In this document: piece by piece, positions 10,801 to 36,883 of the stretch
How the letters are laid out: every line of letters begins with the position of its first letter
Numbering within the stretch: position 1 is the stretch's first letter
Assembly (NCBI GenBank): GCA_051294905.1
Contig: CM119372.1
Coordinates: 27,964,001-28,028,000, forward strand
Direction: 5' to 3'
DNA: 64,000 nt
From: Botryllus schlosseri
Taxonomy: Eukaryota
Translations under genes and position numbers: made by a program
The notes under the pieces: generated by a model
What the model saw: only the letters and a program-made list of their open reading frames with translations
Databases searched by the model: none
Told to the model about the DNA's origin: nothing

Positions 10801-13800
10801 AAAGGGGACGATGGGTCGAAAAAGGTTGTGAACCACTGGTATAGGCTGTTCTAAACAGCAACAAAATGGCTTTTCTTTATAATAACATCATGCTATTTTT
10901 GTAAAAATTGAGTAGACTTAATTATTTCAAAGCTAATTCGACAGCTGCATTTCTTTAATACGTGGTCATGACTTGAAATTCGGCAAATGATAACGGCAAA
11001 CGCTTTCAACGACACCTTTAAGTATGATCGCAACATATATGGCAATAGCACCAAAATGGAAACATATTTTTCAACGAACATATCACGTCCAACCAATAGT
11101 ATTTTCTATCTAGCAGCTCATCTTGAAGTTATTATGGAATAGCGGTTATGTATATTGCAGGTGAAATGGATTTTTAAAAACATTTCGAAGTCACCAGTCA
11201 CCCTGCTCGACCTTAATATACTCCAACTGCTATTTTTTCCGGAAACCCGCCCAAAAACATCTCTAAACATCAATATGCTTGTATCAGTAGGCTATTGGCA
11301 ATTAAAATGAGTTTTCACAGTAGAATATTTCATCTAAGACGGCCATTTTGTTGATGCGAGTCATGAAGTGCCGCAGTGAAGCACAAACTGCCTCGCGATT
11401 TCGCTAAAATAATAAAATAAAAATTAGGTTATCGACCATTTTGCAAATTTAGAGGCTTCACGGACCCCCTGGAAATGCTTCGCGGACCCCCAGTTGAGAA
11501 CCACTGTTCTATGCCCTTAAGTTCTACAAAACTTTTCACAGCTGCTGACTAGAAAGAAAATTGATCACTTCATTCCAGCCTTAAGCAGGGCCCTCAATGC
11601 CAGTTGAAGAGCATTATTAGTTATGTAACTATTGTAACCTATGATGAGCACTGACAATAAGATAGGTATAGAAATAAAGACATTTTTCAAATAAGGACAA
11701 TGTAGTTTTATAAGTAGTTCTCAAACTAAGGATAAATCTTACAAGATTGGTAGGTAGCCTACCGCTAAGAGTGTTGGAGCAAAGTTTCAATATTGAGAAG
11801 ACAGAAATTGAACATATCCAAAATAACCTGTTGCATTGGTTGTATAATTTATCACCAAGCATCCTTGAACATTCAGGAATAACTCAACGTCTAGAATTGA
11901 ATTTCGGTAGCTAAGATAGTACCACTTCTGACAAGATCGAAAATCACACTCGATATCATCTGTTTTGTCTGTGGGCATCAGTGTTATCAAGATAACATAT
12001 GAGTGAAATGACACGAACTATAGAGCAACAGTGGGAACAACACGCTATACCTCACCTGCACACTGGTGAGCGATGTGAATTGATAAGCTTTCACGACAAG
12101 ATAATTTGCCATCACGTCAGTGACTGACAGCAATAGATACTTCCATCCCACTGTCTTGAGAGTCTGAATGAAAAATACAATGTTAAGCAAAGCTGTTAGC
12201 CGTTTGTGCAAAAGCAAATCAAATACGAATCCCTTTTTCTCAATTTTTGGAACGTTTATCTGCACTATTGAGGGGTTTGGACAATGGAGATGCAATAGAA
12301 CCACAAGTAGGTCTGGGCAAAATCGAGAACTGAGTGAGTAGACTCCAAATTGAGTATTTTAGCATCACTCATATGGATAGTCAAATGTGTGGGCTAATAT
12401 TTTTGCGACCACATATAAAGTAATATCAGTTCCATACCATAATTATAATTTGGAATTTTTCTACCATACGTAATCCATTGGACTGAGTGACCTGGTGGGT
12501 TGATCATGTTTTCGAAGAAATGTCATTCCACCAACATGAGTAGCTTCGCACCACATGTCTTGGGTGCTATGAGAAGAGCAAATCAGAGTTCCAAGGTGTC
12601 CACGTTTGGAAATTAGCAGCGAAACTATAATTAAGTATTAAGTGAGTGCCTGGCTAGGAAGAAGAGGATATGGTACTAGTTTCACAGTAAAGTCTACGGT
12701 CTGACTCAGCCAGGGATTGAACCAGCTACCTACCAATCCAGAAGCTACATGCTCTAGCATTGCTCAATCGACTTTGGCGAGGCAGGGATATCTAGAACTA
12801 GTAGTTCTAGATATTCCTGTGGCGAGGCGATAACTGAAGTACATTCCTCACTCCATAGACATAATATGCCAAACATTACGTTACCACATTTATCCTTTCA
12901 AACCAAATGATTGCAAGATTAAGATACGAAGGAGTCAAAAACACTTAGTGAACTCAACGTTAGAATTAAACTCCTTCCACTCAGAGTAGTAATAAACTAC
13001 AGAAACATTGGACACTGACTTGTAAGCTGACAGCTCTACCATTGACAAAACCTGGAAACGTTGTAGGAAGTCAAGATTGTAACGATTTAGCAACACCTCT
13101 CCTGTGATATTCTGAACATATTCACATTAAAGGCGACATCTATAAGCAAAGCATGTGCTACTAGAAGGCATAGATTGTCCCTCAACAACATTTGAAGCTG
13201 TTGCCTCCAATTCAATCAAGTCACATTTAAAAAGGAATGAAATACCTTCTCTACAGCCAGGTTTACTGTGTAGAGATGGTATACCTAATTGAAAGCCACA
13301 CTTCCAGCAATAATTCCATAATAATTTTATAAATATCTCACTTGGAGAAAGATGCTTCGGCCTTCTTCATTTTTCGACGCCACCAAGCGCGTTCCGTAAA
13401 ATAGTGCCAACAGTGAGTAGTTGCATAGCGACTGCGTCAAAGGTATGTTCGCGTTGTAGTTTTGAACCAAGAGATTCGAAGTGATTGCGGTTCCGCAGAT
13501 GAGCAATGATAAAATTTGTCCGTAAAAAATTGGCGTCAATACCTCCCTGAACAGAACATAATTCTAATGATCATCGTACAGAAGGTTGACTTTGAATTGA
13601 TTGTACGGCAGACAATCTGTCCTTTTGATCGATATCTTGGACCAGTTCAAAACAGGCATCAACACACGTCGCTTATTACATTGTATTGAGCACCTTCAAT
13701 AATTGAAATAAATCATTGACTCGTACCGTTACATTAGTTTTTAAATGGCTGACTGGTTCGCCGTATTTAGCCTGTATGCAATTCTGCATATATGCCGCTG

Positions 13801-16800
13801 CACATTGAAATCGAACAGAAAATTCTAGTTGACACGACATGTGACTTGATATGGACTACATCGCTTATTGCTAGAGCGAATTTTTTAACAGGAAGCAAAG
13901 TAAAAATTGTGGCGTTAGGTCAAAAAATTGTCAAAATTGTTTACGAAGTCAGAATGTTTTTGCAACCTGCATTTCGTTTGTATCGTAGATGTTTCCACTG
14001 TCAGCTTGTAGCCTACTTTATAGGCCTACCATTATAAAGGGCCCATTTTCTGCTCATTTTCAATCATAAGCGGTCAAATGAAACAAATAGGTTGACATGG
14101 TGTTATGTTCCGCATATACTAACTGAAGCAAGACTGCGTGTGGGCATTGGTTCTTATATCAAGAAGCGCATGATGAAAAATTGCAATGTAGACATCATTG
14201 TCAGAATGAAGCAACACGGTGTGTCACCAGCAGTGTACGCACAACTTCAGTGTTGCCAGTCAACAACTGCTGCTGTTGAATGTTCTTTCTCAATTCTTGG
14301 CACGTTACTGATTAACGACAGACACTTTCTAACCAAGTATGTCGGAAAGTACCTTTCGTGACAACCTACTACAACAAATTTTGATGATTTCTATCATAAT
14401 GCGTGATGTAACTACTGGAATTCTTCATAGGTCCAGATTTCGTAAAAATAAAGTTTTTTTATGTAAAAATTTGTCAGTTTTCAAGTCAAAAAAGTTTTTT
14501 TCGAGTCAAACTACTTCGTAAGGACAGACAGTTCCTAACAGAATTGAAGATAAGGAGTACATTTCTATCATTATGCGCAAAAACACCTAATTTACATACA
14601 TGACGAGGGAAAAATTTATTGAAATAAAGTTTTATAAGGTCAAAAAATGTCAAAATTTTATTTTTTAGGTCAAAATTTCCCGTTTTTAGGTTAAAAAAAT
14701 CGGCACTTCTTCGATGGCAGTCAGAGATCGAAAAGTGTTCACCATGATCACCAATGAATGTTTTCCATGAACTCGAATTGTTTTTTTTTGTGCCTTTGGA
14801 GAGACGGATATTAGGGTGGGGGAAAGGGAGATTGAAAGTGGGTTAGGGTCAAAGTTGGGGTTAGGGTATCCCAAGATTAGGGTTGGGGAAAGGGGTATAT
14901 AAGGGCTGTGGGAGAGGGGATATAAGGGTTGGGGAAAGGGAGATTGGAGGTGGGTTAAACCCCAGTTAGAGATAATCTAACCCCAACTTAGAACCTAACC
15001 CACCACAACCCTAATATCCTCCTCCCTAACCCTAATCTTGGGATATCCTACCCCATCTCCCTCTCCCCCAACCCTAATATCCCCCTCCCTAACCTTATTA
15101 TCCCCCAACCCTAATCTTGGGATACGCTACCCCACCTCCAATCTCCCTCTCCCCCAACCCTAATATCCTCCTCCCCAACCCTAATCTTGGGATACCCAAA
15201 ACTAGGGTTGCCATACGTCCGGAATTTCCCGGACATGTCCGGCATTTCACTGTTCAAACTAGCGTCCGGGAGGAATTTCTAAAATATGCCAAATATCCGG
15301 AATTTTGAAGACTTGACGTAGGCTCATAACTTTTTCGTAAATCAGCATAAAAACAATATTTTATGTGGAATATTTATGCTGATGCATGATATTTTTCTTC
15401 GCGCTGCGCGCGATTTACCATCACATTTATTGATTGTAATATGGAGACTACCACCCTCGCAAAAAACTGCAATCAAATATAAATAAAAACAACCTTCATT
15501 TACAATTGAATAGTATATTCATATTGAAATGAACCCAAATATTTTCGGCTGACACTCGTCAGGGGAAATCGTCAGCAACTAGTAGAGATTGGAAAGAACA
15601 TTGTATACCAACAATCGTATCACAAAATATGACGTCACCAGCATGAAAGAAAGAGTGTTCAATGCACTATTTTTAGGTGGTACACGAACTCCTTTTGTTG
15701 ACAGAGTTTTGGTCGGTGTATTTTGATAAAAGTCGACTCCAAGGCTCACAAATGGAAGTCTGAACGGCCCCGCCCAACGATTCGAAATCGGTCGTCTCGA
15801 TAATTATTCGCAAAAATCCGATTATCTAACAGATGTTTGCCGATGGCAGAATTAATGGCCTTTGATTGGTCAGCATCAATCATAAGCGGATGAGTTAAGG
15901 GTGAGCTTCTCACTGAGCGTGATGCACGTGTTCTGATAATTCTGGGGACATGTTGGTCTTTCCCATTCTCTACTAGTTGCTGACGATTACCCCTGACGAG
16001 TGTCAGCCGAAAATATTCGGGTTCATTTCAATATGAATATACTATTCAATTGTATAGTGAAGTTCTGTACCTCCAAGAAGAAGCTCTTCAGACCTTCATT
16101 TACCGGAATAAGCCCAATTGTAATCGCAATTATAGGAGAATGGTATATTCCCAGAGATCGTTAAGGCCGCTTAAATGCTTTATTCAAAGATAGTGGTTCT
16201 AAACGGGGGGGTCGTTTGCTTTTATTCTGGGGTTTACGAATATGTTGAAAGCAATCAGCTTCCAAAATAGCAGGTGAGTAAGTCTGGGCAAAGGTGCTGA
16301 CTTCTTTTAGTAATCGGCTCGTCAAATTTTGATCTGGGTCACGGAACATTTTCAAATTGGATATTGAGTAGCAACCATAAAAGGTTGGAAACCACTGGAT
16401 GTTTTTTTTCATAAAGCTCCGTGGTGCGCACCGGCAAGTGACATGGATTACCCCATAGTGTGGGCTCAAAATCATTGTTTTTTGGGCGGGAGGGGGCTAA
16501 AAACATGTGCTTTCGGTCCCAGTTACATAACACACAGTCACATGCTCCTGAACCGGATCGTGACCACCTCTGGTCGATGAGCAAAGCTTTGCTAGTGTGA
16601 CGCCATAACTCATTTTGAAATCCACCAGTGGGCACTAAAGAGTGTCCGGAATTTGGGTTGCTGAAATATGGTAACCCTACCCAAAACCCAACTTTGACCC
16701 TAACCCTCTCCAAACGCAAAAACAATATATTTTGACGTTTATAAATTTTTATTCATATTCATGGAAAACATTCATTGGTGATCATGGTGAACACTTTTCG

Positions 16801-19800
16801 ATCTCTGACTGCCATCGAAGAAGTGCCGAAAAATCGCCCTTATTGCATACAGCCTCTAGGTTGCCTAGCATCGGTTGACTGAAAATGAAACAGTCTCATG
16901 GCCTGCCATGAATTCTATAAATTGATTTTGGCTTATGTCAGCAGGTAGCAGTCAACACAAATGCTCTAAACTCTAATAGTGTCCGTTGATTTTAGTTCAT
17001 GTTGTAAGTATTGCTGGACTGGATTATGCAGAGGAATAGCAGCCAGTCCTCAAGTCCTCCAAACGCCGGGTAATTGGTCTCTTCAATTCTTCAGACGGAT
17101 TTCACGAAGTGTAGCAAGGGTCGTAATGTAGTGCCGATTCAAGTCATGCCGCAAAACCTCTCACGCGAAATAAATCACAGACATTCCACATTACCCATAC
17201 ATGGACGATTGGATACATGCCTGTTTCAGTTACGGTACTGCTTCAAGTATGGAATAAGGTATATATGGATGGTGAACGTTCATAATATTCTAATAGCAAT
17301 AGGGGTGGTGCAAGATTTAGAAAGCCGTGGTAGTGGTAGAAGGCTATACCTGCACCCCTGTTTGGAATCGGTGTCCTGTGCTCACACTATGTTTTATTTT
17401 TAAATTATTTTTTAATAAATTACTTCAACTGGGAAAATCATCGAGGCTCACCTGATATATCAGGCAAAAAGGCCAGCGATTCCAATTGCACCTTTTTTGT
17501 CCAGCGGCATATGCACATCATGTTCTCATGGTATGCATATGCGCAGATTGTGTGTATTTGTATCATGAGTCGCCCTGAGTCGGTGTATATGCCGCAAAAA
17601 CATCAAGGACAAAAATATACTACGTCCTCTCTATGGCACCCAACCTTACCTCGACCCTAGGTGGGCGAAAAAATCTTTTAGCTTGACCATTACGCGTCCC
17701 GAACTCATAGCTGCGTCGTCGTCCGGGTACTATATGCGTCAATATACAAGTCGGCGTAGCATCAGGTACATCTGTGTTGTTGCAGCCAAAGAAGGAGTTG
17801 CAGCGATGCGTGGACACTGGGCAATTTCATTCGTACTTCGCACACGTGAACTTTATTTGCTACAGGATACCCAACAACGTCGCAAACACTGCCTATCAGC
17901 GCGACCTTGCGGAAATATCACAATCTATAAAAATATATGAGGATTGAGGATATATGACTGTATGTATTTGTATAAGAATGAGAACGAGAACGTGTCGGTA
18001 GGCTAGGTCAATATGTCCAATCGTAGCTCGTTAATCTTAACGGCTGATTAGCATTCGTTTGCATTCCCACGGCTTTGTTCTTTTTACAGTTATTTCAGAA
18101 AATTTCGAAAAGTTACGCGGCACACCTGAGAATCTGTAACGGCACATTATAGTGGCAAGTTTTCTGGCGATCCGCGAAATATATTTGAATTTATTATTGC
18201 AAAGTTGTGCACTTGATCATCAATTACAGAAATAAAACATCAACTGTTAAATGGACTTAGAAATTAGGAACGTGTTTTCAGCTTGTTGTCGTAGTCAATA
18301 TATAGAGTTTATGCTTTACTAGACTTGGCATACACGATGCCGCAACTGGTGTGCGCAATTGAGAGCAGTGGCGTGAAGCACATATGCTTCCACCCCTGAC
18401 TTTCGTTGAAAATGCCGCCCAAATTTGGAAATAGTAGCAATCTTATCATTATGACTACCGGAAATCTTGTTGAGCTGATCAAAAAAAGGTCATCACTTCG
18501 CCTCTACTCCCGCATTTCCGACCTTTTTCAGTACTTATGTAGTGTTGACTAAAAAAAAGTCATCTCACATTTTGCCGCCCCCTTGCAGCCTGTCACACAT
18601 GGGCAGAGCCATAAGCGCCAAGTGGCTGCTACGCCACTGCTTGAGAGTAGCCTACAACTCGTTTAATACCAGTTATAATGCGAAATTAAGTCAACGAGAC
18701 TTCTTGGGAACTAAATTCGTTAATTTTCGACAGTATAAATTAGCGAAGTTTTGCAGTGTAATAGAGACTGCAAAACAGTAAACTCGCATTTCTCTCAAAA
18801 GAAACAGAAGAATCAAAATCAAGTTGAGCGGTTTTTTCGACTTCGCTTAGCAGAAATTTCTATAAAGCAACGTATAAATGTCTAATACTCAGGCCGTGTT
18901 ATTTTTGGCATTTCAGGAGCGGGATGCCAAAACTGCCAAAAATAAAAATTTGAAAATGCCAAAAATAAGCAATTTTTGGCATATGCCAAAAATAAAACGG
19001 CCTGCCAAATAGTGTATTTCGTTCATGGTGTTGTGTTAACAGGACCGCGTTACAAACGAGAAGAGCGTTTGTGAAAGGCGGGTTTCTTAATCTGGGTCCA
19101 GCCCACCCATTAGGGGTGAAAGCATGGTGTCATAAATGGTGTGGGCACAGCGAGATTGAACGGCTGACTGCATTTGGTTTACGTCATACTTTCCATTTGT
19201 CCAAAGGCAATTTTACGACCATTTTTGACCGGCTTGTCGAGCGCTAAATTTGATAAAACGGGTATCAATGAGAAGCTACCGCAGTACTGATTATTAAAAT
19301 ATAAATTATATACTGCTCATGGAACTGGAACCCCCAAAATCAACCACGATTTTTGCATTGTGATTGAGTTGAACATTGTGACGCAACAAACTGTCTGGCT
19401 ATTTCTGAGCTGAATAGTCTCGTTTTGCCAGACAGTCTTGTTGCGTCAATGTTCTTAAACAAGCTAACCTTCCCAGGACTCTTCCATGCGAGTTTGTAAT
19501 ATTAAAGCCACGTGTAGTGAATATATCAGTAGACTGAAGGAGAAATGATAGTAGGGCTACTAAATAGAATGTGTTGAGAGACAACACAGGAAACTCCTGG
19601 AATAGGATCGGGAAGACAATTCTTTCCGCGACGAGATCGATGGCACTGGCGAAGTGATCTCTTTTCATGATCCATGGAAGCCGGTTCGGCCCTCCAAATA
19701 TTTTGAAGCTCTGAAAACCTTTTGTGGATGACTGGCAACATTTTTTCCCTCAACGGCTACTGTTGAAGCCGATATTTCCCAGATTCTCTGGGCGAGAAAT

Positions 19801-20552
19801 GAATTTAGGAGAAACTTAGCTGACCTGAGTTTGGAAGCACTGTTACAGTGCAAACGATTTAAGTCTATTCAACAGCTGTAACAATGAGCTGTTGAGCGTG
19901 TTTGTTAGGCTTTTCTTTCTTTTTTTTGCTTATTGGCACCGATTCCGATGAATACTGCAAATTTTGTGGTTTCGTTTGATATTATTAACCTATGAAATCG
20001 TTAGGTTTTTTTTCTTCCTATTGTTTGTTGGCACTGATTATAAGTGGATGCTGCACATTTTGTGGTGTCTTTTGACAAACTAGCCGAAATAAAGCGTTTT
20101 TGTGACTAATTCGAGGCTGAAACTATCTATTTAGAGGACGATGCCAAAACTGCCAAAAATAAAAATCGAAAAATGCCAAAAATAAGTTATTTTTGGCAGT
20201 TTTGGCATATGCCAAAAATAACACGGCCTGCTAATACTTAAATGGCAGCATCAAATGAAGTATCCTATATTGAGCTTAGAGTTGCATACATTTGCCGCAA
20301 TTACATTTTGAAGGTTCCTCGGTCTGTCACGTCAAAAAGGTAGAGAACCATTGTTCTAGCGTAAATGGCATTATATTTCATTGGCGATTGCGCAACGTTA
20401 CTCGATCGAATCTCCAGATCATTCATGCGGCTAAGACGCCAAAATACTCAACTCGACGTCCTAACATCCGATATAGAACCGAATCACTCATAGTCTACTA
20501 GATTTCGTCATTCACTAATGCCTACCTGGTTCCTCCTTTGGATTGCTACCAT
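7879..20552 (-). CDS. SLC35F2: Solute carrier family 35 member F1/F2-like transporter (DMT superfamily), about 390 aa, 8 coding exons
   Basis: Exons 20552-20526, 17729-17650, 13546-13342, 12163-12056, 10256-10100, 10037-9875, 9473-9266, 8103-7879; all GT-AG, phases consistent, 1173 nt. Motifs [70 protein letters not shown] match SLC35F1/F2. First exon (MVAIQRRNQ) is less certain; a fallback in-frame ATG is at 17708. F1 versus F2 cannot be resolved. Confidence 0.9.
10538..11506. mobile_element. hAT MITE (CAGTGG family) containing a nested MITE at 10669-10838
   Basis: Outer termini cagcggttctaaac / gttgagaaccactg with TSD ttctaagt/ttctatgc; the inner element has perfect TSD gtataggc. Confidence 0.8.
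12635..12772 (-). mobile_element. Degenerate relative of the 6133-6390 SINE
   Basis: The reverse complement shows a tRNA-like head (ggttcaatccctggctgagtcagacc) and a decayed central domain (cctagccaggcactca). Confidence 0.55.
12783..12819. mobile_element. 37-bp miniature hAT-type element
   Basis: Near-perfect palindrome cagggatatctagaactagtagttctagatattcctg with perfect TSD tggcgagg (12775-12782, 12820-12827). Confidence 0.85.
15203..16679. mobile_element. hAT MITE (TAGGGTTGCCA family)
   Basis: Termini tagggttgccata / tatggtaacccta, perfect TSD cccaaaac (15195-15202, 16680-16687). Confidence 0.88.
15503..16052. mobile_element. TA-flanked MITE with about 85-bp TIRs (Tc1/mariner-like)
   Basis: caattgaatagtatattcatattgaaatgaaccc...ctagtagaga is inverted at 15967-16052; TA on both sides. 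Confidence 0.8.
18366..18639. mobile_element. hAT MITE
   Basis: cagtggcgt...acgccactg, TSD attgagag/cttgagag. Confidence 0.75.
18890..20230 (+). mobile_element. Internally deleted hAT transposon with pseudogenised transposase C-terminus
   Basis: TIR caggccgtgttatttttggca, perfect TSD ctaatact, tgccaaaaataa subterminal repeats; decayed frame at about 19463-19881 includes LATFFPSTATVEADISQILWARNEFRRNLADLSLEALLQCK. Confidence 0.85.
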
Positions 20553-20635
20553 TTGTCACTGGCGAAAATCTAACCTTCCATATTCAAACCATGGTAAGCA
20601 CAATCTGCCACTCAACCGTAACAGAAACCACTCAC

Positions 20636-20660
20636 CGCCTAAGAAACTTAAACCATTTGA
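20636..20660 (-). promoter_or_regulatory. Candidate trans-splice acceptor (tttaagtttcttAG) followed by 3 nt (GCG) and a GTGAGT donor
   Basis: The minus strand reads ggtttaagtttcttag GCG gtgagt; a 77-nt intron (20635-20559) leads to the ATG-containing exon. Confidence 0.5.
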
Positions 20661-20756
20661 ATTCCGTAACAAAATGCATCAAATAGGACTTGGAACAAGT
20701 TCATACATCAAAAATAGAACCAAGATTTCATAAAATAACGGCCCGCTCGGGCAGAT

Positions 20757-23700
20757 TCACTTCTTCTTGGGCGGCGTAATTGTCGGCGGCGGCATCAGGC
20801 GATTAGAGTCGACCCGAGCATGCTTTGGATTAGCATGCGACCCGTTGCCTAAAGAAAACACCGGATTATACCTTGATTGGGCGATTGAAAAGATGCACGC
20901 AGGAGCCACATGCATAGCCAGGATGAAAATTATTGGGCAAAATGTTTTAAACGAGGGGCATACGCGGACTAGTTACAAAGGGTCCATGAAAAGCCAACGC
21001 TTGAATGTAGAATTATAAAACTACATTGCCCTTGTTTATGAGATCGATCATTATTATTGACTTATGTCGTTACTTTCATTGCTAATCACTCTGGGACGAT
21101 TTTTTACATTTTGTCAAAATTGTAGAGTTAGGTAAAAAAAGTCAGAATTATTTGCCAAAGTCAAATTTTTTTTGCAACCTGAATTTCGCTTGTGTCGTAG
21201 ATTTTGCACTGTCAGTGACGTTTTACAGCTTGTAGCCTTACTTTATAGGCCTACCGTTGCAGACAGCCCATTGTGAATCATAAACATTCGAATGAAACAA
21301 ATAGGTTGACATGGTGTTATGCTCAACGCACCGCAATATCCTAACTGAAGCAAGACTGCGAGGGCATTGCATGGTTCTTATATCAAGAAGCGCATGATGT
21401 AAAATTGTGATGTATACACCATTGCCAGAATGAAGCAACAGGGTTTGTTACCAGCAGTGTACGCACAACTTCAGTGTTGTCAGCCAACAACTGCTGCTGC
21501 TGTTGAACGTTCTTTCTCCATTCTTGGCAAGCTACTTAGTAAGGACAAGCACTTCCTACCCGAGAATGTAGGAAAGTATCTTTCGTTGCACTACAACAAA
21601 TTTCAATTATTTCTACCATAATACGTGATGTCACTACTGGAATTCTTCATAGGGCCAGATTTTGTTAAAATAAAGTTTTTTCACGTAAAAATTTGTTAGA
21701 AGGTCAGAAAATGTCAATATTTTAATTTTTTAGGTCAAAATCTTTCGTTTTTGAGGTACAAAATAATAGCCCTACTAATCACGGTCACAATCAGCTACAT
21801 TGACGATAAGAAAACCAATATCGAACATCCAACGCTCAAATTTGGAGGGGTGTTGGCGGCGTTTGCACCCCGCTTGACCACGTGTCTGTATGTCAGGTAA
21901 TTGCGGTTGAGCTCCGATCATATCCCAACTTACTTGGTCGCTTGGTAGCGTCCCCAGGATGGGGCTGATGACCCGGCGCTTTGGTCCGGTACCTTCTCTT
22001 GTCGATGACGTCGAACAAAAGCTCTTTCGTGACCGGATGTTTGATGCTCCCACAAACAGCTGCACAAGAAAGTTCAAGGAAAAATGAAGCCCCTCAACAA
22101 GGGTGCTGTCAGGGTTAAGTGGGAGAGGGACGAAATAGCAGCCGATCAATTTGCATTTGACATCAACATCTAAAATACTCCGGTTAAACCAGGAGTTCTC
22201 AACCTGGGGGGCGCGAGAGGCTCTCAGGGGGGGCGCGAGAAATTGACGAAGTCAGTATAGGGGGGCGCGAGAAATTGACAAAGTCAGTATAAATTGTACG
22301 TGTCTGAACATGTGTTTCACATCCATTAGGAGAAGACGATTAATGAAGATGAAATTTATTCCATATTCAAGAAAGCTTGCAAAATACAAACTCTAGAAAC
22401 CGCGCTCAACGGAGTATAGTCTGATTTCAACTTCATTTGAGCAAATTTTTGAATCTCTTTGGAGATATAGAGAGCAATTCCCACGTGTAAGTCATTCATT
22501 GCTTCATAGCTTTGACAGTAGCCTAAAGCTTGTCGCGCTGGGCAGCTCTTGTTAGTAGCTTGCGAACTGCACTGCCTAAGACAGACTTAGATGCAACATA
22601 GGTTGCCCGGTTTCGCCCTCAATTAGACTATAAATCAACACAATTTAATTCATTTCCAAAACTGATCAAATTTAGCCTGGCAGGACAGAACGACGCCTTG
22701 CTCTCTGTACTCACTACCAGCATCAGGATTAGTCTCAGGGTGACCTACCTTGAAATTAATTAATGGATGTCTTGTTCAATGTTTTTTTTTTGTTATTTTC
22801 AAACAAGTTTGGAGAAATTTGTCAGCAATGTAAAAGACTCAACAACTGGAATGCAGATTCAAAATTGGCGTAAGATATACCTTATGTATACTATTATATC
22901 AGGGGTGGGCAGCCTGCGGCCGTAGAAGGGAATTTGAGCGGCTGTCGACGCCTAATTCAATTAGTATGTGTTGGCGGCCGTAGACATGCAAATTGCAATT
23001 ACGAATTCACTACCGCATTTTCGAGAGATTTTAATTAATCTTGAAATTTTCTTCGCCCTCCGCGCAATTCAACAAGACTTCATTTTTCGATTCTAATGCA
23101 GTAGCGCCCTTCTTAATCTGAGCCGAAATGGGAATTGGCAAGAAATAACAATTCGTTCGCAACCCTGAAAAATTTTCGCGCTCCGCGCGACATTATGCAC
23201 CTCCCGGCAACTATTCATAACATTGCCACTCGCGATTTCGGTGCGTACAATAGGCCATTGTGAAAAGTAGAATAGTCCGGAGTTCACCGGGAATGGATAT
23301 GGACTGGACAGTTTACCATAGGAATTTTCTGTCCAGATCGTTCATTGCGGCATTGCCCTGGAATGCGGCCTTACGCTACATAAGCAATCGAAATGCGGCC
23401 ATGATTATCAAAAACGTTGCCCACCTCTGTATTATATGATGTGCTCTTTTTGACATGACGATAAATGCAAGGGGGGTCAGGGGGGCGCGATATTTTTGAC
23501 CATCTCCAAGGGGGGCGCGTGTCAAAAAAGGTTGAGAACCACTGGGTTAAACCATATTAGTGACAATAAGTGCACTATCAAAAGTTCAGTTCAGTTTGTC
23601 ACTTAAATTTATTAATCCCAACATTAGAAGATAGCGATGAAATGGAAATACACGACGGAGACAAATAGCCTTGAAGCAGACTTGAACAACTAGATCAGTG

Positions 23701-26700
23701 GTTGTGTGGTTCCCAACCTTTTTCGTCTCGTGGACCCCTTGGCCGATATTTGAGCTAAAATTCCCCCCCTATGAATAAGGTGCCTGTGACTAAAAAAGGT
23801 GTTTATTACCGCACAACCATTTATTGACTAAACAATTTATGGCCAAACATAACAGAGGGTGTGATATCTACGGAGGGCATTTAAACATTTACCTAGCTTA
23901 AAATCCGCCAAAGAAACATACAGTTACAAAGAACCAGTTTCATATTTAACAGTTCTACCATAAAAATCTAAAAACCTTGTGAACTCAGTGTATCTTCCGA
24001 TACAACCCTGAAGCCAGATTCCCCCCTAAAAATTTCAAAATTCCCCCAAGGGGGGAATTCCCCCCGGTTGGGAACCACGGAACTAGATGATTCTAGTTGC
24101 CAAATTAGATTAATCAGGGCGAAATGCTCGTAATCTAATTCTAATCTGATTTGTAAAAGTTACTTTGCTCTAATTCTCAGCTGATCTGTGAAATACTTTT
24201 ATGCTCTAATTTCAATTGTGATCTCATATCTGGTTTCCTGAAAATGCTACAGGAGAACTGCATGGTGGGAAACGAGCCAAGCTTGCTGTACAGACATTTT
24301 CCAACATCACGTTTATAACTGATCTGCATACCAAATATCTATTTGTAATTGGGAGTTACCGAGTGTATGTATGGGCAAAGCATTGAAACTATGACATATC
24401 ACAATGCGACCATTCACTTTTTCCACGCCGAACAGCAGACCGAACGGATTTAGCGATTTCGGATGAAATCATATATCGAATTCACAAACGAATACAATTC
24501 CTCAAAAATCATCAAAAATTCCAACAAGAGTGTTGTCCATATCCAAATCGGTATCAAAGAATGTTAATCCAAGCTCGAAGATATGCTCGTATCACTTAAC
24601 ATCAGAACTACGCTAGAGTTAAGCGGTCGACACAAAAAAAACCTTAAGACTCACACATGGCAGTGGTGTAGGAATTGGGAAAGCTCTTGTCGGTACGTTC
24701 TCGCATGAACTTCCACGAATTATTCTCAAACGTGCATTCGATGATCTTGTTATTGTACTGCTGTAATGCCTTTGTCACCTGTAGTAGAGTATTTCAAAAG
24801 AGGTTACCGATAACCAGAGGTGGCCAATAACGTAGTACTTCCAGTTTTTACAAGTACGGAAGTAGGTTGATTGTACTATTTACTCAAGCAACACGAATGT
24901 TCTACTCAAATACAAATAGAAGTATCATTTCCAAACTACTTTGAGTAAAAATAAGCGGCCCTGGGTTAGCTATCACCTTCATTTTAGCAAAGGGCGGGTC
25001 ATGCTGGCCGACGTACAGCAGCCCCAGCGTCTCGTTGAGCATTCCCTCGCCAGACACTTTCTGAATCTTCAACCGGAAATCGACGCTGTTCAGTGTGGAC
25101 GGCTTCCATTTCAGGATGTCGTCATTTCGGCCAGAACGGTACGGCTGGCAAAAAGAAACACGTTTTCCTCAGACAAGTTCACGTGTACGATACATCTTGC
25201 TGACGACATGAAGTAACAGCACAAATTGAAGTACCCCTATTCTGTGAATTACTTTTACAGTTGACAGTTGCAGATTGGCACTTATATGCAGTTTAAACCG
25301 CGAGCCATGTCGATTGAGGAAAATGGACGTAGTCCTTTGAACTGTCAACTTCATCAAAATTCGTAATTGTAATGGTTCTTAATCTTGTCATTCCCTTTCT
25401 GAAAAGGAGCAATGGAGGACAAAAAGTTCAAGAACCACTGAATCAACCGATACAAAAACTAAAAAAAACATGGCCATAAATCGGTTTGCGCTTCAACTTT
25501 AGTGTATCTAGGAATGTCGCTTAATAGATGTTGTTTCAAAATTGACTCAACAAACCAAGACCCAGTAAACACACTGCACATAACAACGGCAGTGCAGCAA
25601 ACTTACATCTATCGGATGCGCAGATGCCGGCTGAAATATTAATCCGTCCACCTCGTGGCTGATCTGCTTGGAAAACCTGAAAAAATGCGTCACCGAGTCA
25701 GCTGCAGCAGAGCCTACACATTTCCTACAGGAATGGGTGTAGTCAACGTTCTGCGCAATTTATTTATATTGCAATGGTTCCAGGACTACAGTAGTGGCTT
25801 TCGGGTAGGCCCTTGTGTCATGTATTTGAATATAGAATTCAAGCTGTGCGTAGGACTAATACTAACAAACCGCTGATACGGTCTGCTTGGTGACAATTGA
25901 CTGCCAGAAACAGATTTTTGATATTGTCCGTAGGGTCAAAATTCTCATACGGTTAGTTCATGTCTCGGTGAAAAACTGAAATTCCTCGCAAACCGTTGCT
26001 ACCGTAATTTCAGTCTGGACCATCTGGCAGAGTCGTCTGACGCAGTTCATTAACTCATTGATATTTTGATGAAATATCTAGAAAACGCAGCGGCCCGTGT
26101 TTCGGCAGACCATATCCTTTTTCATATAGTTCGATAACCTAGTGATCTCATCTTTTGTTGTATAGTAATTGTGCTCCTTAGTACAAGTCATGGCTAGGTT
26201 AATAATGTCAAAATCCACATTTACTTCCAATTCACGCCTCAAACCCATGTCTTTTATTGGTGCGCTGCAGGTTACCGGCCGATAAGTTTAAAAAATAATC
26301 TATTTACGGAATGGAACCCATTGCTCACAAACAACTAATGTTACATTGTTACAAGGGAAAGGGGGAGAACATTTAGGTGTGTATGAGATCTCAAAAGTTG
26401 AATCCAAATCTCGACACTAGGTGCCAACTTACTGTCCATCGATGAGTTCATGCGCAGTGGCGATGTCCCAAAACTCCTTAATCCTCACACTGAACGCCTG
26501 CCTGGTCCGGTCCAGCAGGCCCTGCCGCATTTTCTCGTGTCTGGGACCGATGATCTCCTTTTTGATGCAGGAGAGACGCGTCAAGAAGTCACAGTCGCCA
26601 ACCGGTTGGCCCTGGAATGAAATAGACCTGGTCAACTATTAAAAACGGTGTCATTTCATAATATATCACACATTCATTAAAAAAGCCTGACCAATATTTA

Positions 26701-29700
26701 TCGTTGTCCAATGATGTCATCACTCCTAGAATTGATGCAAATGAAAGAGTCTGCAGTTCTGTTGGACTGATTTATGAGGACTATTCCAGTTCAATTTTTG
26801 GTGAAAATGAAGAAAAGCTGTGTTTGCTGAGCCACAAACACGCCCGCCGGTTTAGAAGTAGGCTACTAGACTCTAAATCAGTGGTTCCCAACCTTTTTAT
26901 GCTAATTCCCCACTTCCGAATTATTCCGAGCCTTCATTCCCCGCCTAAAATCTTTATATCCATATCCACCCTTTAAAATGCTATCTCCAATAAAATTTTG
27001 CAAGACTTTGCTTAGTAAATAGCACGTGCTATTGGTGATTGTTAAGATCCCCGGAATTGATCAGTACACAATAAAATTACCACAGCAGTGAATTGGTAAC
27101 CAAAAACGCACCCCCGTAAATATGTATCTATACCCCGATGCGCAGCCAACAGAAAAATAGGAGGGGTTTGAAAATTTTCCAAATGCGCGGGGTAGCATCA
27201 ATTTACGTACGTAAATGCAGAATAATACATGGGTCAGATAAACTTCCGGATGTTGACGATCTCATGCGTGTGATATAGATGTAAGCCGCCGTAAACTACA
27301 CTTTCGCACAGTACTAAAAAAACTTGAAATAACATAAATATGTAATTTCATTTGTAACGAGTCCGGATGTGCTATTAGTTAGCAAGTCCATGATCTCCCT
27401 TGAATACATGTTCAGCAATATGAGCTCTTAATACAACGAAGCAGAATTTTTCTATCACTATGTTTCGTGACCGATGATGGTGTGCAAATGAGTAAAAACA
27501 TTTGCTGGAGATCGCGTGTCGCTATCCAGGCGATTCTCGCTAATTGGAGGCACTGATATTAAGAATCGCTGAATTGCAAATGAGGTAAGAAATATTCGAG
27601 ATACGATCGGCATTTCAAAACGCCATTTAATAAAGGAGAATATTACTGTGAAGATTTTTGCAAAAGTGAGTCTATTCCCCACCAGAAATCCCGAAATTCC
27701 GCACTAGTGGGGAATTCCCCACCGTTTGGGAACCACTGCTCTAAATCAACTTAGCAAGTACTTTATTGTAAATCAAATTCTGGTCAAGCGGTTTTTCCCC
27801 TATTTTTAACGCGGACCCAAAAATTTGTGTCTGCGTGGACTCCCTAATTGCAAATTTTGGGAAGGTGATGACTAAAAAAGATCTACCATATTAGCGTTAG
27901 CATCGTCTGTTTACTATTGTGACCGGTTTTGAGCACTGTATATAAGACAGTCGTGGTTCAAAAATAAGGACGACATAGTTTTATAGTTGTAGTTTCATGA
28001 TTGGGTTTCAATAGACCTCTTCAAAGTACTCTTGGACTACAGGTTAAGAGCCCCTGTGTAGCTAACTAAGTCAGCATAAATCATCAGCTCCACCGACAAA
28101 AATATGTTATATCGGCGATATATATATATAAATAATATAAAAACAAGGTCACTCAAACTCACCGAGAACAATATAATATCGTACATAAGATATCTTGGCA
28201 CGGTCTGCCCGTTCACAGTATCAAGAATCATTTCCCCGTCAATGAGGGTGTCCGTCAAGTGGTCGTGAAGATTTTTACGGTGAATAAACTCGAGGTTGGA
28301 TATCTGTAATCAGCAAGCATGGAGTAAAAACCTGTGCCTCGCAACAAAAACAAATGTTATTGGGTAGGGCAAACTTTAAGGCGAACAGGCCAGACATAGG
28401 TAAAAGACCACGACAGCAGATCAGTGTTGGGATCACTTGAGACATGATTTGGCTGCAGTAATATTTTTTGAACGACTCGGAGTTGACTTGACTGGAAGTC
28501 GCAGAATTTGAGATGACTCGACTCGGGTCACTTTGAAATTCTGCGTTACTGGACTTGAAATTTATTTTAATCGCTAGAGTAAAAATATGATAACAGTATG
28601 AAAAATAGGACTTGATCCAAATGCTGCCACACGTCGGCTGCTTCCATGAAAATTGACCAAGTTGGTGATGGTGACGGTGGTCAGAATGAATAAATCTAAT
28701 CGGACCATAGATCATGAAAGTTGCTCCAAATAGGCTTTTACAAGTACAGAACGTCAATATTGCAATCAACAACGTTAATATTGAAAAATATATTGTACTC
28801 GAAGCTTTTCGGCCGATTCTCATCAGGAGTGAAAGTCAGTAAATGTATGGGGAAGAAATTTGGCAATAATAACAGATTGTTTGTTGTAAAAATTATTAAC
28901 AGGTTATTGAACAAATTTTGCCTACAATAGTCCTATTTTATCGATTTGGGTGTTTTTGGGATTAGTTGTGCTTATCTGAAAAGTGTCAAACTAAGCTAAT
29001 TCATGAACTCGTTTTGTAATTGCGTTGGACTGTTTGTATGTGGTATTCATGGTGTTTGTTGACTACTATGGTCATTTACACCAGGCCGATATTCTTTATC
29101 TTTGATTCCGTTACTGCCGACTTGTAGCACGACCCACTTCTATGCTTTTTATGTGACACCGCTTACGTGGATGAGGTGGCGCGGAGGAGCCTAGATAAAC
29201 CTCCAACACTTAGACAGGAATTCTGGAGTCGACCTCGGTCGGACTCGAACCCGCAACCCAGTGGTGTTGAAGCTGTGGATTGTACCACTATGCTATCTCG
29301 CCACACAATTGCGTTTGACTGGCTACAAAAGCAAGCAAAACTGCCAGTGCATTGCAACTAAACTCATTTTATATCACCGTTTTTAGTAAAAGCCTGCAAG
29401 TTCAGATATATCGGCCGTATAACACGAGTAGACCTACACTAGATCTAGGGAAGGGCTAGGTACCGAGGTGTTTGGATCCTACCTGAAACACTGCGTTGTC
29501 CCGATCAATCATGTAGACTTGGTCTTTTCCGTTGATTAGCATCATGTACCGAACACCATCCGCTTTCCAGCTGACCTGATACGATTTTTGCATCAACAGT
29601 TTGATATTTTCCAAAGTCATCGAAACAGGCTGGGCGCCGGGGAATCCGTTTCTGTAATAATCAGATGTGCTAATCGGAGCAGATAATATCAAATTCAATA

Positions 29701-32700
29701 TTTTAAAATCTAAATCCCACTCAAGTCCAAACATAGAATTCAATTTGTATCAGTTCAAATCCAGTTCAATGCTGCGCCAGTCTTCAATAATAATGTTAGT
29801 CTACTACCACTATCTATTCTAAAAATGGTTATAGTTAATCAAACCCTACCAATACAATATTACAATTTCCTGCACGACATCACTGAAGGAATAGAGCTTG
29901 GCTTTAGACATGGCAATTTGTGGCCGCGAGTGCTCATTGTGATCTGGCAACCCTCTTTGACGTAACACTCTGGGCGGAACCCTAATACGCCTGAGAAATT
30001 GCTACTTCATCTGCGACTTTTATTCTGTCATAGGTACCAAGGCAAACGAAACCGTACTTTACTTTGGCCATTTGCAAATGTTCTTGACCCTGTTTTGAAC
30101 TTGCGACAACGTCGGTTGTACCGATATCTGCTGCACGTCGGGAATGTCGGCCCCCTCCACGAAGGTTTTCACTTTCACCTGAAAAACGCGAAAATCGGCA
30201 CAGATTCGCAACCAACGCAAACAAAAAACTTACTCTGACGTGCCGCACACGGCCGCCGGACCCAGACTGAATTTCTTGCCCATTGTCATCGACTGAAATT
30301 TGGAATTGCACGTTTAAAGAGGCAGTATCAAAAAGACAATCGGTGGTGGTTAATGCTACCACATACTTTCACAATGCTCATAGTCATACATAAGCAGAGG
30401 TGGTCAAAGTAGTCAAGAAAGCTACTCAAGTAGAAGTAGAAGTACCGACGGAAAAATCTACTCAAGTACGAGTAGAAGTACTTCTTGAGTAAGCAGTCTA
30501 AAACTACTTGAAGTAGAAGTAGAATTGACTGACTTTAAATTTACTCAAGTAAGTAAGTAGTTGTGAAAACGATCGTAATTCGTTCACATGGATTGTCAAA
30601 AGGTTCAAATTGAGCTATGCGAAAGGTGCCGAGCTTGATTTATATTGATGCATACCAGGAGGTATCCAATTTTCGACAGCATAAGCATTCGTCCACATCA
30701 TGGGATGAAAATGACAGTATTGATATGGAAATGCGATACTAATCCTCTGTTTACTCGAACAGAACGTTTTAGAAAATATCGTGGTATGGCGCCCTTCCCC
30801 CCATATTTAAGGCCCGTAGTTTAGTCAAAGAGCAATATGGAAAATTGGTATAGCATACGGTGTAAAGTAAACACTTTGCACGATTAGTAAACATTAATAA
30901 AAATATGGGGATCGTAAAAATCCCATATTGTGTAGCTTTACTTCCGGAAATTAAAGGCATTACTACACTCGCTTCCATACTTCTACATGTATGTTATCCA
31001 AACAAAAGAACTGATATTAATTAGAACTCGAAGTATATGATACTGGGAATTGAAAGTGAAATATAAATACTATTTCTAAAAGCGTCTTTAGTCGAGAAAG
31101 TTTCGAAGGTTGGTATGCTAAAACAGCTCTGATACTAAAAAAAGTCAAAGTCCAATTTTCCAGATTAGAACATGCCATGGACTGCTAGATTACGATATGA
31201 TCAGTAAATGCTAGATTGCGAAACATCAGTTTCAAACGTTATGATGAGCCATAATATTATATACTGTGATGAAATATTTGATATGGATGAAGGGCGACAA
31301 TGATCGAGGTGTGAACGGTACCACGCCAACCCGCTACCTAAACTATATTCACTGATACTTTCGTGAAATCATACTGGTTAGCCTACCCCGTATCAACTGT
31401 GCGCGAAGCGCGACAAAAATTCTGGGCTTTACTCAACTTTGTTGAAAATTAAATGTTGATACTAAGTGAAAACAGCCCCGAAATTCCTCAAGCTATCTTC
31501 CAAATTGGAGGATTAAACAACTTCTACTTGACAAACTGAAAAAAGCGAAAACTAAGTAAGTAGATCACAAAATATTTCGAAGTAGAAGTACCGAAAATCA
31601 TATCTACTTGAGTAAGTACCAGAAGTGGAGGAAAACTACTTGAGTACTTCGAAAAAGTAGAAGTACTTCGTTAATGACCACTTATGTACATAAGACAGAT
31701 GGGAAGGAGCCGCACGGAGCAGAGTGTGTTACCTGCAGCCGACAGAAAAATTGTCGTCCGAGTAAAATTTTGATACATTACTTCTACTTGAACTTGAGCA
31801 CACAGACGACTACTTTTGGTCATAGCCACGCTCTAATAACGGGATGTATCAAAGTCTACAAATTTACCAAAAGTACATCATTTCTGCGTTACTGCATAGC
31901 CTACGCGAATGAAGCAACACCTGATAATACTGGGAAAACAACTTTTGTCCGCAAAGATTTAGAAATTAATATCCAGTAACCTCAACTATTTGCATAGATA
32001 GGATACTTGCGTAGGATAGGATTGTTGAACATAGACATTCTTAAATTGACAGGATCACCATTACAATTGGCATTGACACAAAAAATCAAAGAACAGTAAG
32101 CAAGGATAAATGAACATAACAGCACGAAGAGGGGAAATTTCAAAATTCCATTTTACCATTGGCTTCTGAATCGTCACATTCCGTATGCCAGGGTGGGAGA
32201 GGGGGTGGTGCTGGGGCGTCGGCCGCATCCCCATAGCGCCGAAACAGCTCTTGGATGTAGTGACCTTTTATAATTCCAGGCGGTCTCGCTTGAGCGAATG
32301 CCATAAATGATGCTTCAACACTGAAACAGGATATTATGGTCTGTTGCATATTAAAGGAACGGAAACGTGGCCTTGCCTGATAGTGGCCACTATGTCAATG
32401 ATATGACCGGTAGCAAATTCGGATAGGCTATATAGCGGATATGCCGATGGATTTGGAGTCTTCCAAATAACCAGTACCTAATACGTCTGACAAATCACAG
32501 TTAATACAGGAAAATTATCAAGACATTCACAAGTGATAAATGTAAAGGACTCCATAATATAAATACCGGTAGATGTTAGTACGGTCGGCGACCTACGATA
32601 AGTTATCATTGGCCCAGATATCCTACGCACACGCAGGGCATTGAAACAAGTACGGTACCCATCATCAAGTTTATCCCATCGCTACACTTTAATTAGGGAT

Positions 32701-35088: not shown

Positions 35089-36016
35089 TCTACAGCGGTT
35101 TATCTATTGGTATCTACTGAAAAGCTAATAAGTGGATAAAACATAAACTGTAATGAACTGTAAATCCGTCAGTTAAGAAGGTAAAATATCTATCAACGCC
35201 TTTGAAATGAGCTAAAACCCAGGCGGTGCTGTTTGAGCTGAGCGGTGCCGGGGCGGGGTGAAAAACAACAACACAGGAATAAAACTACACTGTTGGTTGC
35301 CGCTCCACTCTCGATCCACTCACTGAGTGGTGCAGACTGCAAAAAGTGCAGAATGAATGAATCATCCGTCATGTCTGTACTCCTCGCTAGGTAGCCGTAT
35401 AGTGTCCAGTTGAGATTTACCACTGAGCTAAAGAGCTATATAAATATTTGGTAGGCCTATATAATTTTTACAGATTCACAGAATCATGATTTTGGATTTT
35501 AACCGGACAGTATGGTTACCATATTTTGAGACTTTTGAAGTCGGACGAGATGACGGGTAATTCGAATTTTTTTCTAGAAATACTGTTGTGCTGGCCATTT
35601 TTCTAAATCTACACTCGGTCGACCCGCTCTAACACGTCATCGCAACCGTCGAGATCCGGTTTTGGCGATATTTATGGTGTTTTTTAGTAATGCCTGTGCA
35701 ATCGCCTGCCTGTGCAATCGCCTGCCTGTCAAAGCAATATATATATCATTGGTCAAAGCTAAGGACGGTCTAGTCTGCCCTCAAGATTAGTGGACTCTGC
35801 AATCTGACATATCGACATCGCCTACCGACACATGCAGCATTCGTTTTTGCCGCTTACTTTTATGCTATCCTCTCTTTTATCCAGTGTGCATGCCTCTTAT
35901 TTACATGCTGTAGGCCGGGAGTGGGCAACTTCTCCAGTCGGCGCGCCGGATATGGGAAAAGTGAAGTACTTGGCGGGCCGTATTCGATCCTTATTAGATG
36001 AAACACGTATTTATCC

Positions 36017-36594: not shown

Positions 36595-36883
36595 ATATTG
36601 CACACAAAAAACAATTGAGCGATAAATAACTAAAAATAACTATTATTTGTGTCCGAAAACAGGAATAAATAACCTACAGTCACTATAATTTGACGTAGTG
36701 AGAAAGCAGTGGACACGACAGACACAAATTATTGCACACAAAATTGCACACAAAATATTGCACACAAAAAACAATTGAGCGATAAATAACTAAAAATAAC
36801 TATTATTTGTGTCCGAAAACAGGAATAAATAACCTACAGTCACTATAATTTGACGTAGTGAGAAAGCAGTGGACACGACAGAC
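36595..36883. repeat. 129-bp direct duplication with a 31-bp spacer
   Basis: 36595-36723 reads identical to 36755-36883. Confidence 0.9.

What the first reader, a model, noticed from the sequence alone, without database searches (positions are those of the whole stretch)
20526..20848. Candidate operon: mRNA-capping enzyme RNGTT directly followed by an SLC35F transporter
Seen: the RNGTT stop is at 20757; 117 nt further on the same strand is a strong acceptor (tttcttAG, 20640-20639); an ATG exon (20552-20526, CAG/GTAGGC donor) splices in phase 0 to exon 17729-17650, which joins the conserved SLC35F exon. There is no AATAAA/ATTAAA and little room for a promoter in between. Established: ascidian operons are resolved by spliced-leader trans-splicing with essentially no intercistronic DNA, and human SLC35F2 has been reported to transport queuine/queuosine. 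Inference: the two genes are co-transcribed, so the downstream mRNA would get its cap from the SL rather than from the enzyme encoded upstream, and two RNA-modification-related functions would be coupled.
Basis: partly seen in the sequence, partly recalled or inferred. Interest (0 to 1): 0.72.

Follow-up and report, generated by a model that had tools for sequence, protein, structure and literature searches.

The report
Capping gene beside transporter, operon unproven
In a sea-squirt genome, the gene for the mRNA-capping enzyme sits just ahead of a probable queuine-transporter gene; both genes are real and ordinary, but the RNA data do not show the proposed start exon, and whether the two share one transcript remains about an even bet.

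Summary
Both genes are real: RNGTT (14 coding exons, 613 aa) and an SLC35F1/F2-type transporter (7 coding exons, 374 aa), same strand, in a stolidobranch ascidian. The sequence details are as described, but RNA does not support the proposed ATG exon 20552-20526. Its bin had zero depth in 3 of 4 runs, no 20526-17729 joint was among the 15 of 33 shown, and an SLC35F contig runs unspliced through the claimed acceptor to 17857. RNGTT mRNA does end near 20663-20640 without AATAAA, as predicted. The observed ends are 2.8 kb apart, 63% of that transposon-like DNA. In Styela clava the two genes lie on different sequences. Best reading (0.5): separate transcription units, RNGTT using a non-canonical poly(A) site. 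Close rival (0.4): an operon of another layout, since the gap's best splice donor lies 3 nt behind the AG at RNGTT's 3' end, implying a 3-nt first exon. No spliced leader was seen at any site, but few loose ends were visible. The 'cap from SL' coupling has no mechanistic weight. Earlier scan notes report a spliced leader elsewhere in this genome; none concerns this pair.

The parts
20757..35088 (-). RNGTT coding region, 14 exons (35088-34967, 34335-34189, 33682-33518, 32320-32157, 30292-30234, 30178-30063, 29651-29483, 28303-28163, 26611-26433, 25676-25607, 25144-24977, 24778-24655, 22059-21934, 20848-20757), 613 aa
   Evidence: Open frame over 13 GT-AG introns; Pfam DSPc, mRNA_cap_enzyme, mRNA_cap_C; 77% identical to Styela clava RNGTT; only the last junction directly seen in RNA
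35089..35118 (-). Two AG acceptor-like sites ahead of the RNGTT ATG (35118-35117 and 35091-35090); a GC box at 35256
   Evidence: By length arithmetic the X2 RNGTT contig begins about 3 nt inside the 35090 site. Trans-splicing here is inferred, not seen.
20639..20756 (-). RNGTT 3' UTR: U-rich (42% T), one TGTA at 20707, no AATAAA/ATTAAA; mRNA end at about 20663-20640
   Evidence: contig ends at 20663 in X1 and X2, depth fall in X21
20639..20640 (-). AG after a short pyrimidine run: candidate intercistron boundary and trans-splice acceptor
   Evidence: Sequence; modest score, rank 31 of 170; no leader seen
20630..20638 (-). GCG|GTGAGT: best consensus donor of the gap, 3 nt behind the AG; candidate 3-nt first exon 20638-20636
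   Evidence: Rank 1 of 174 GT sites; only GTRAGT in the gap, 3 such in 21,081 nt of the two genes' introns; no junction seen
20609..20638 (-). G/U-rich 30 nt (80% G+T): may be the downstream element of a poly(A) site, which would also explain the donor-like word
   Evidence: 154 of 63,970 windows are as G- and G+T-rich; role inferred from recalled poly(A) site anatomy
20526..20552 (-).
   Evidence: donor rank 12 of 174
18890..20230 (.). 1,341-nt hAT-type DNA transposon copy: 22-nt perfect terminal inverted repeats, 8-nt target duplication AGTATTAG
   Evidence: many reads from other copies lie on it. 'hAT' rests on the 8-nt duplication (recalled rule).
18365..18638 (.). MITE-like element with degenerate inverted ends
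   Evidence: flanks match over 6 of 8 nt
17860..17861 (-). AG (tcctgtAG|CAAA) 2 nt ahead of the SLC35F contig end: candidate acceptor, cis or trans
   Evidence: weak score 0.3, rank 47 of 170
17650..17857 (-). First observed SLC35F exon, unspliced across 17730; three upstream ATGs (ORFs of 22, 10 and 7 aa); coding start at ATG 17708
   Evidence: X2 record 9, depth 40.2. 17857 is a minimum 5' extent.
7879..17708 (-). SLC35F1/F2-type transporter coding region, 7 exons (17708-17650, 13546-13342, 12163-12056, 10256-10100, 10037-9875, 9473-9266, 8103-7879), 374 aa
   Evidence: Open frame; PF06027 in 5 of 5 exons scanned; 59% identical to Styela clava, 44% to human SLC35F2

Best explanation
Two ordinary neighbouring genes, each its own transcription unit. 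RNGTT is cut and polyadenylated at about 20660-20640 by a site without AATAAA (upstream UGUA and U-rich sequence, downstream G/U-rich stretch). SLC35F starts from its own promoter within a few hundred bases upstream of 17857. It is probably leader trans-spliced at 17859, or further down at 17729 or 17710, which would remove the upstream ATGs, and its protein starts at ATG 17708. Shown: gene models, RNGTT 3' end region, the unspliced exon 17857-17650. Inferred: the poly(A) mechanism, the promoter, the trans-splicing.
For: Observed mRNA ends lie 2,805 nt apart (20663 and 17857). No joint between the RNGTT end region and SLC35F among the 15 of 33 joints shown, and no contig depth in 20485-20639 in X1 and X2. 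SLC35F RNA runs unspliced through 17730. TGTA at 20707 and an 80% G+T stretch right after 20640; with that composition a GTRAGT arises by chance about 3% of the time. Styela clava RNGTT and SLC35F lie on sequences of 22,500,630 and 32,746,820 bp. Ciona outrons peak near 100 nt and are mostly under 500 nt (PMC4691747 passages), which fits a start just above 17857.
Against: No promoter was shown: no start-site data, zero depth at 17850-18314 in both raw-read runs, and the only GC boxes in the gap are inside a MITE. RNGTT lacks AATAAA, as 16 of 18 Ciona operon upstream genes do. Its end falls within 24 nt of an AG followed by the best donor of the gap. About 5 read-lengths of minus-strand RNA lie beyond 20640 in X21.
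Confidence: 0.5

Rival explanations
1. A Ciona-type operon of another layout than the first reader's. One transcript runs from the RNGTT promoter through both genes. The AG at 20640-20639 is the shared boundary: poly(A) goes on its G for RNGTT, or the leader is joined to G20638 for SLC35F. The first SLC35F exon is only 3 nt (GCG), and a 2,776-nt intron (20635-17860), swollen by transposons, leads to 17859. A variant has the leader joined directly at 17859, as in Ciona operon 42.
For: RNGTT end within 24 nt of the AG in 2 of 2 contig sets. No AATAAA or ATTAAA near it, and no 3' tags at the distal AATAAA 18195 (X21 minus-sense depth 0 at 18160-18469). The donor at 20635 ranks 1 of 174; 8 of the 19 true donors are GTRAGT while introns hold 3 in 21,081 nt (chance in 60 nt about 0.9%, chosen after the fact). 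The SLC35F contig stops 2 nt inside an AG. About 20% of Ciona genes are in operons (PMC2760879 passages). Operon 42 precedent (PMC1488885 section 14).
Against: No leader, no 20636-17859 joint and no dicistronic contig seen, though only 24 of 669 loose ends and 15 of 33 joints were shown. The G/U-rich context raises the chance of the donor word to about 3%. Both acceptors score weakly (1.4 and 0.3). The mRNA would carry three upstream ATGs. Adjacency is not kept in Styela. Operons have been reported for Ciona; I found no paper showing them for this group.
Confidence: 0.4
2. One reading: leader joined at 20638 or 20558, ATG exon 20552-20526 spliced to 17729, giving a protein with 16 more N-terminal residues.
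For: The join is in frame. The longer N-terminus (43 residues before the GQ motif) is within the range of relatives (30-50), while the ATG-17708 form is the shortest at 27. Contigs drop rare variants, and X23 covers these genes at depth 3 or less, so a minor isoform could be missed.
Against: Zero depth in the exon's bin in X23, X1 and X2; the small X21 signal continues unspliced into 20330-20484; X2's SLC35F contig passes 17730 without a break. Acceptor 17730 scores -4.1, below all 19 leave-one-out scores of true acceptors (lowest -1.1).
Confidence: 0.07

Closest known systems
Leader-resolved operons without intercistronic DNA in Ciona (Satou 2006, PMC1488885: passages, sections 14 and 17 read; Satou 2008, PMC2760879: passages)
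   Same: Same-strand neighbours in an ascidian; upstream gene without AATAAA; an AG at or near the upstream 3' end.
   Different: The observed downstream exon begins 2.8 kb away, not at the boundary. Leader, poly(A) on the G of the AG and dicistronic cDNAs were not seen here. If it is an operon, the first exon would be 3 nt.
Monocistronic trans-spliced genes with an outron in Ciona (PMC4691747 and PMC11155486, passages)
   Same: Short U-rich stretch ahead of AG acceptors near the start codon, for RNGTT (35090) and SLC35F (17860, 17730, 17711).
   Different: No start site or leader was mapped here.
fuhc sec / fuhc tm pair of Botryllus schlosseri (PMC3691228, passages)
   Same: Close same-strand pair in a stolidobranch with low-level read-through, where operon and leaky termination were hard to tell apart.
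   Different: There the gap is 227 bp and 5' RACE found no leader; here the gap is 2.8 kb and no 5' mapping exists.
Metazoan RNGTT (bifunctional triphosphatase and guanylyltransferase)
   Same: Same domains and order; 60-86% identity to six relatives.
   Different: Nothing unusual found.
SLC35F1/F2 queuine and queuosine transporters (human SLC35F2, S. pombe and T. brucei Qtp1; PMC12207525: passages and section 11)
   Same: PF06027; 44% identity to both a vertebrate F1 and human F2. The paper reports that organisms with a single SLC35F use it for queuine.
   Different: It groups with other tunicate-type sequences, outside the vertebrate F1 and F2 branches (midpoint-drawn tree). The paper says the family is not isofunctional; substrate untested.

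Membership tests
Ciona-type leader-resolved operon | Adjacent genes on the same strand | tested here: met
   Both on the minus strand. No other gene was recognised in the gap; its one long ORF, 19402-19749, had no Pfam match.
   Zero depth in 3 of 4 runs; SLC35F contig unspliced to 17857.
Ciona-type leader-resolved operon | Same feature via a 3-nt exon 20638-20636 | tested here: inconclusive
   Such an exon cannot give depth; contigs lack their outermost bases; 645 of 669 loose ends hidden.
Ciona-type leader-resolved operon | Spliced leader on the downstream mRNA | tested here: inconclusive
   None of the 24 loose ends shown lies at 20638, 20558, 17859 or 17729.
Ciona-type leader-resolved operon | Poly(A) added on the G of the acceptor AG | tested here: inconclusive
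   Contigs end at 20663, 24 nt short of G20639, in X1 and X2; no tail junction shown.
Ciona-type leader-resolved operon | No AATAAA within 40 nt upstream of the upstream gene's poly(A) site (16 of 18 in Ciona) | tested here: met
   None of 12 hexamers tested occurs between 20756 and 20383.
Ciona-type leader-resolved operon | Unresolved dicistronic transcripts | tested here: inconclusive
   About 5 read-lengths beyond 20640 against about 240 on the last RNGTT exons in X21; no bridging contig among the pieces shown.
Ciona-type leader-resolved operon | No separate promoter for the downstream gene | not testable with these tools
   Needs CAGE or TSS-seq.
Metazoan RNGTT | N-terminal cysteine phosphatase domain with HCxxGxxR | tested here: met
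   [10 protein letters not shown] in the model; DSPc E 1.4e-06, below its curated cut-off for the single exon. Motif label recalled.
Metazoan RNGTT | Guanylyltransferase domain with KxDG, plus C-terminal domain | tested here: met
   KADG in the model; PF01331 in 3 exons and PF03919 in 1.
SLC35F1/F2 | PF06027 over the whole length, similarity to F1/F2 | tested here: met
   5 of 5 exons scanned match consecutive parts of the profile; 44% to human SLC35F2.
SLC35F1/F2 | Queuine or queuosine transport | not testable with these tools
   PMC12207525 section 11 names no binding residues to check; its supplement alignment was not read.

The most novel reading that the evidence does not exclude
A hidden operon: the RNGTT poly(A) site and the leader acceptor share the AG at 20640-20639, and SLC35F begins with a 3-nt exon followed by a 2.8-kb transposon-filled intron. 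The mature mRNA would read leader-GCG-17859, which short-read mapping would score as a leader joined 2.8 kb downstream with three stray bases. Distance rules of under 100 nt would miss such operons, so tunicate operon counts could be too low, and one AG would serve 3' end formation, trans-splicing and a neighbouring cis donor.
Probability: 0.25. Interest if true: 0.5.

Novelty: new member of a known kind. Interest (0 to 1): 0.25.

Why it matters
Under the best reading it matters little: two conserved genes next to each other. An operon would be one more among the roughly 1,310 counted in Ciona (PMC2760879), though in an ascidian group for which my searches showed no operon survey. The useful lead is the geometry at 20640-20630. 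If a 3-nt first exon hides an operon boundary, a simple re-scan of leader reads for a few unmatched bases would reveal a missed class, and would offer a compact test of the open question (PMC1488885 section 17) of whether trans-splicing itself makes the upstream 3' end.

Tried and rejected
Whole genome: none held, so no genome-wide rate of AATAAA use, donors after 3' ends or operons could be measured. Run search: no holder on record as RNA; I laid 4 of 24 listed runs, and X1 and X2 are RNA only by the tool's guess (both show the spliced RNGTT junction). X23 was too shallow (depth 3 or less on these exons). Repeats filled the tables, hiding 18 of 33 joints, 645 of 669 loose ends and 3,224 contig pieces; the call cannot be repeated. 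One search used a wrong reading frame and found nothing; the correct frame gave 5 hits among 79 candidates. Synteny: only Styela could be tested. The representative search and the look-up of its 10 best hits gave no named Ciona, Phallusia or Clavelina SLC35F; a second Styela paralogue beside RNGTT is not excluded. The metagenome scan gave 8 loci of 117 stretches at 29-53% identity; I did not read them and did not use them. Supplement searches for RNGTT or SLC35F names found nothing in PMC1488885 (2 files searched, 1 not searchable) and PMC4528069 (1 file), so whether Ciona RNGTT is in an operon is open; bioRxiv supplements were closed. A search for RNGTT, SLC35F and operon found 23 papers with two of the terms; none of the 20 listed concerns tunicates. 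Earlier scan notes had nothing on this place or its look-alikes. Rejected: use of the distal AATAAA at 18195 by RNGTT (no 3' tags); a long unspliced RNGTT 3' UTR as the main form (about 2% of read-lengths beyond 20640); RNGTT abutting its own upstream neighbour (the P450 gene ends about 8.4 kb away). No structure or complex prediction was run: neither bears on transcription.
Full report
What is there. The window comes from a stolidobranch ascidian: the nearest named relatives of both proteins are from Styela clava; the species was not established. On the minus strand, 14 exons from 35088 to 20757 give an open frame of 613 aa with 13 GT-AG introns. It carries phosphatase, guanylyltransferase and C-terminal capping domains and is 77% identical to Styela RNGTT, 66% to Ciona and 60% to Xenopus. 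Downstream, 7 exons from 17708 to 7879 give 374 aa, matching PF06027 in 5 of 5 exons scanned, 59% identical to Styela and 44% to human SLC35F2. In a 13-row tree it sits with other tunicate-type sequences, apart from the vertebrate F1 and F2 rows; the root is only a midpoint and three long rows are unsure. Human SLC35F2 and the single homologues of fission yeast and trypanosomes transport queuine (PMC12207525; abstract start, passages and section 11 seen). Queuine transport is therefore likely here but untested.

The sequence observation. The stop, the AG at 20640-20639, the ATG stretch 20552-20526, its in-frame join to 17729 and the lack of AATAAA and ATTAAA are all as stated. The sites are weaker than claimed. 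With a matrix from the 19 introns of the two genes, the 20639 acceptor ranks 31 of 170 AGs in the gap, the 17730 acceptor 97 of 170, and the 20525 donor 12 of 174. The matrix is small and built on cis introns, so it may underrate trans-splice sites. A simple acceptor of the 20639 type occurs by chance in 120 nt about one time in three.

RNA evidence (4 of 24 listed runs, four studies; stretch 17540-22189). The last RNGTT intron is confirmed (59 reads in X21 over two listed placements, one contig each in X1 and X2). RNGTT contigs stop at 20663 in both X1 and X2. X21 behaves as a 3'-tag library (inferred from read lengths and from 3,873 of 3,886 laid reads being second mates). Its depth is 154 at 20813 and 19 at 20692, with bin means of 56.6 (20640-20794), 1.67 (20485-20639) and 1.14 (20330-20484). 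The proposed exon's bin is empty in X23, X1 and X2. X2 record 9 (2,277 letters, depth 40.2) covers 17649-17857 without a gap and ends there, so SLC35F RNA passes the claimed acceptor unspliced. In that form two in-frame stops precede ATG 17708, which becomes the start. Limits: X23 is shallow, contigs drop rare forms and lose ends (the RNGTT contig starts about 2 nt into its coding sequence by length arithmetic), and 18 of 33 joints and 645 of 669 loose ends were hidden. No leader was seen anywhere, so the leader test is open, not negative.

The gap. From 20638 to 17860, 1,750 of 2,779 nt are transposon-like: a 1,341-nt element with 22-nt inverted ends and an 8-nt target duplication, a MITE, and a piece repeated at 46239-46373. 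This fits an intergenic region or an intron equally.

Three bases behind the AG stands GTGAGT, the best donor of the gap and its only GTRAGT. The two genes' introns hold 3 such words in 21,081 nt, while 8 of the 19 true donors have it. The SLC35F contig ends 2 nt inside an AG at 17861-17860. Together these allow an operon with a 3-nt first exon and a 2,776-nt intron. In Ciona, poly(A) is added on the G of the acceptor AG, 16 of 18 upstream genes lack AATAAA, and one operon showed the leader on exon 2 (PMC1488885 sections 14 and 17). Against it: the 30 nt after the AG are 80% G+T, as expected for the downstream element of an ordinary poly(A) site, a TGTA lies at 20707, and in that composition the donor word arises by chance about 3% of the time (the poly(A) anatomy is recalled). 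These features were chosen after seeing the data. The exon 17857-17650 holds three upstream ATGs, which suits an outron removed by trans-splicing at 17729 or 17710 from a nearby promoter; Ciona outrons peak near 100 nt (PMC4691747 passages). In Ciona, trans-splicing favours the first acceptor when its donor is weak (PMC11155486 passages), so a donor this strong, if used, would be cis-spliced.

Conservation. In Styela clava the two proteins map to sequences of different length, 22,500,630 and 32,746,820 bp, and their older accession numbers are 6,825 apart, so they are not neighbours there. Other tunicates could not be tested.

Mechanism and the functional claim. Under either model the capping enzyme works in trans on nascent Pol II transcripts, including the leader RNA (established knowledge, recalled), so a leader-derived cap on SLC35F says nothing about RNGTT's position. 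Satou 2006 argues that one precursor from an abutting operon yields either the upstream or the downstream mRNA, and found members neither tightly coordinated nor exclusive. Two RNA-related genes side by side, without conservation in a fellow styelid, is weak ground for coupling.

Earlier scan notes report a 24-base leader in this genome and leader reads at acceptors placed at start codons. I did not check them; they only make trans-splicing in this organism plausible.

Verdict. Observation partly confirmed; exact model unlikely (0.07); separate units 0.5; operon of another layout 0.4, of which the 3-nt exon form is about 0.25. These odds are my judgement, not computed. Interest 0.25.

Noticed in passing
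window 43460-48460, minus strand: A multi-exon cytochrome P450 gene (Pfam p450 on 45317-45607; heme-cysteine exon at 43672-43460) lies about 8.4 kb upstream of RNGTT on the same strand.
   Followed up: partly
window 35091-35088, minus strand: An AG acceptor sits one base ahead of the RNGTT start codon, and the X2 contig starts about 3 nt inside it; RNGTT itself may be leader trans-spliced.
   Followed up: partly
window 17857-17852, minus strand: An AATAAA begins exactly where the SLC35F contig ends; no 3' tags lie upstream of it, so its role is unexplained.
   Followed up: partly
window 17830-17730, minus strand: Upstream ORFs of 22, 10 and 7 aa in the observed SLC35F 5' region; they could regulate translation if kept in the mature mRNA.
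   Followed up: no
window 18890-20230: The hAT-type element has an internal second copy of its end motif (18923-19008), and 11 X21 reads skip 18968-19477 with GC..AG ends, probably from spliced transcripts of other copies.
   Followed up: no
   Followed up: no
window 36595-36883: A perfect tandem duplication of a 160-nt unit (1.8 copies, 100% identical): recent, or an assembly artefact.
   Followed up: no
window 14879-15185: Purine-rich degenerate tandem array with TTAGGG-like words inside the SLC35F intron, with an inverted counterpart near 16700.
   Followed up: no
window 4800-5790: Fragments that read like a decayed LINE reverse transcriptase by eye; no Pfam match for the 3 pieces scanned.
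   Followed up: partly
window 17576-17629: A short intronic stretch attracts thousands of reads with poly(A) or adapter loose ends: a piece of an abundant repeat-bearing transcript from elsewhere.
   Followed up: no
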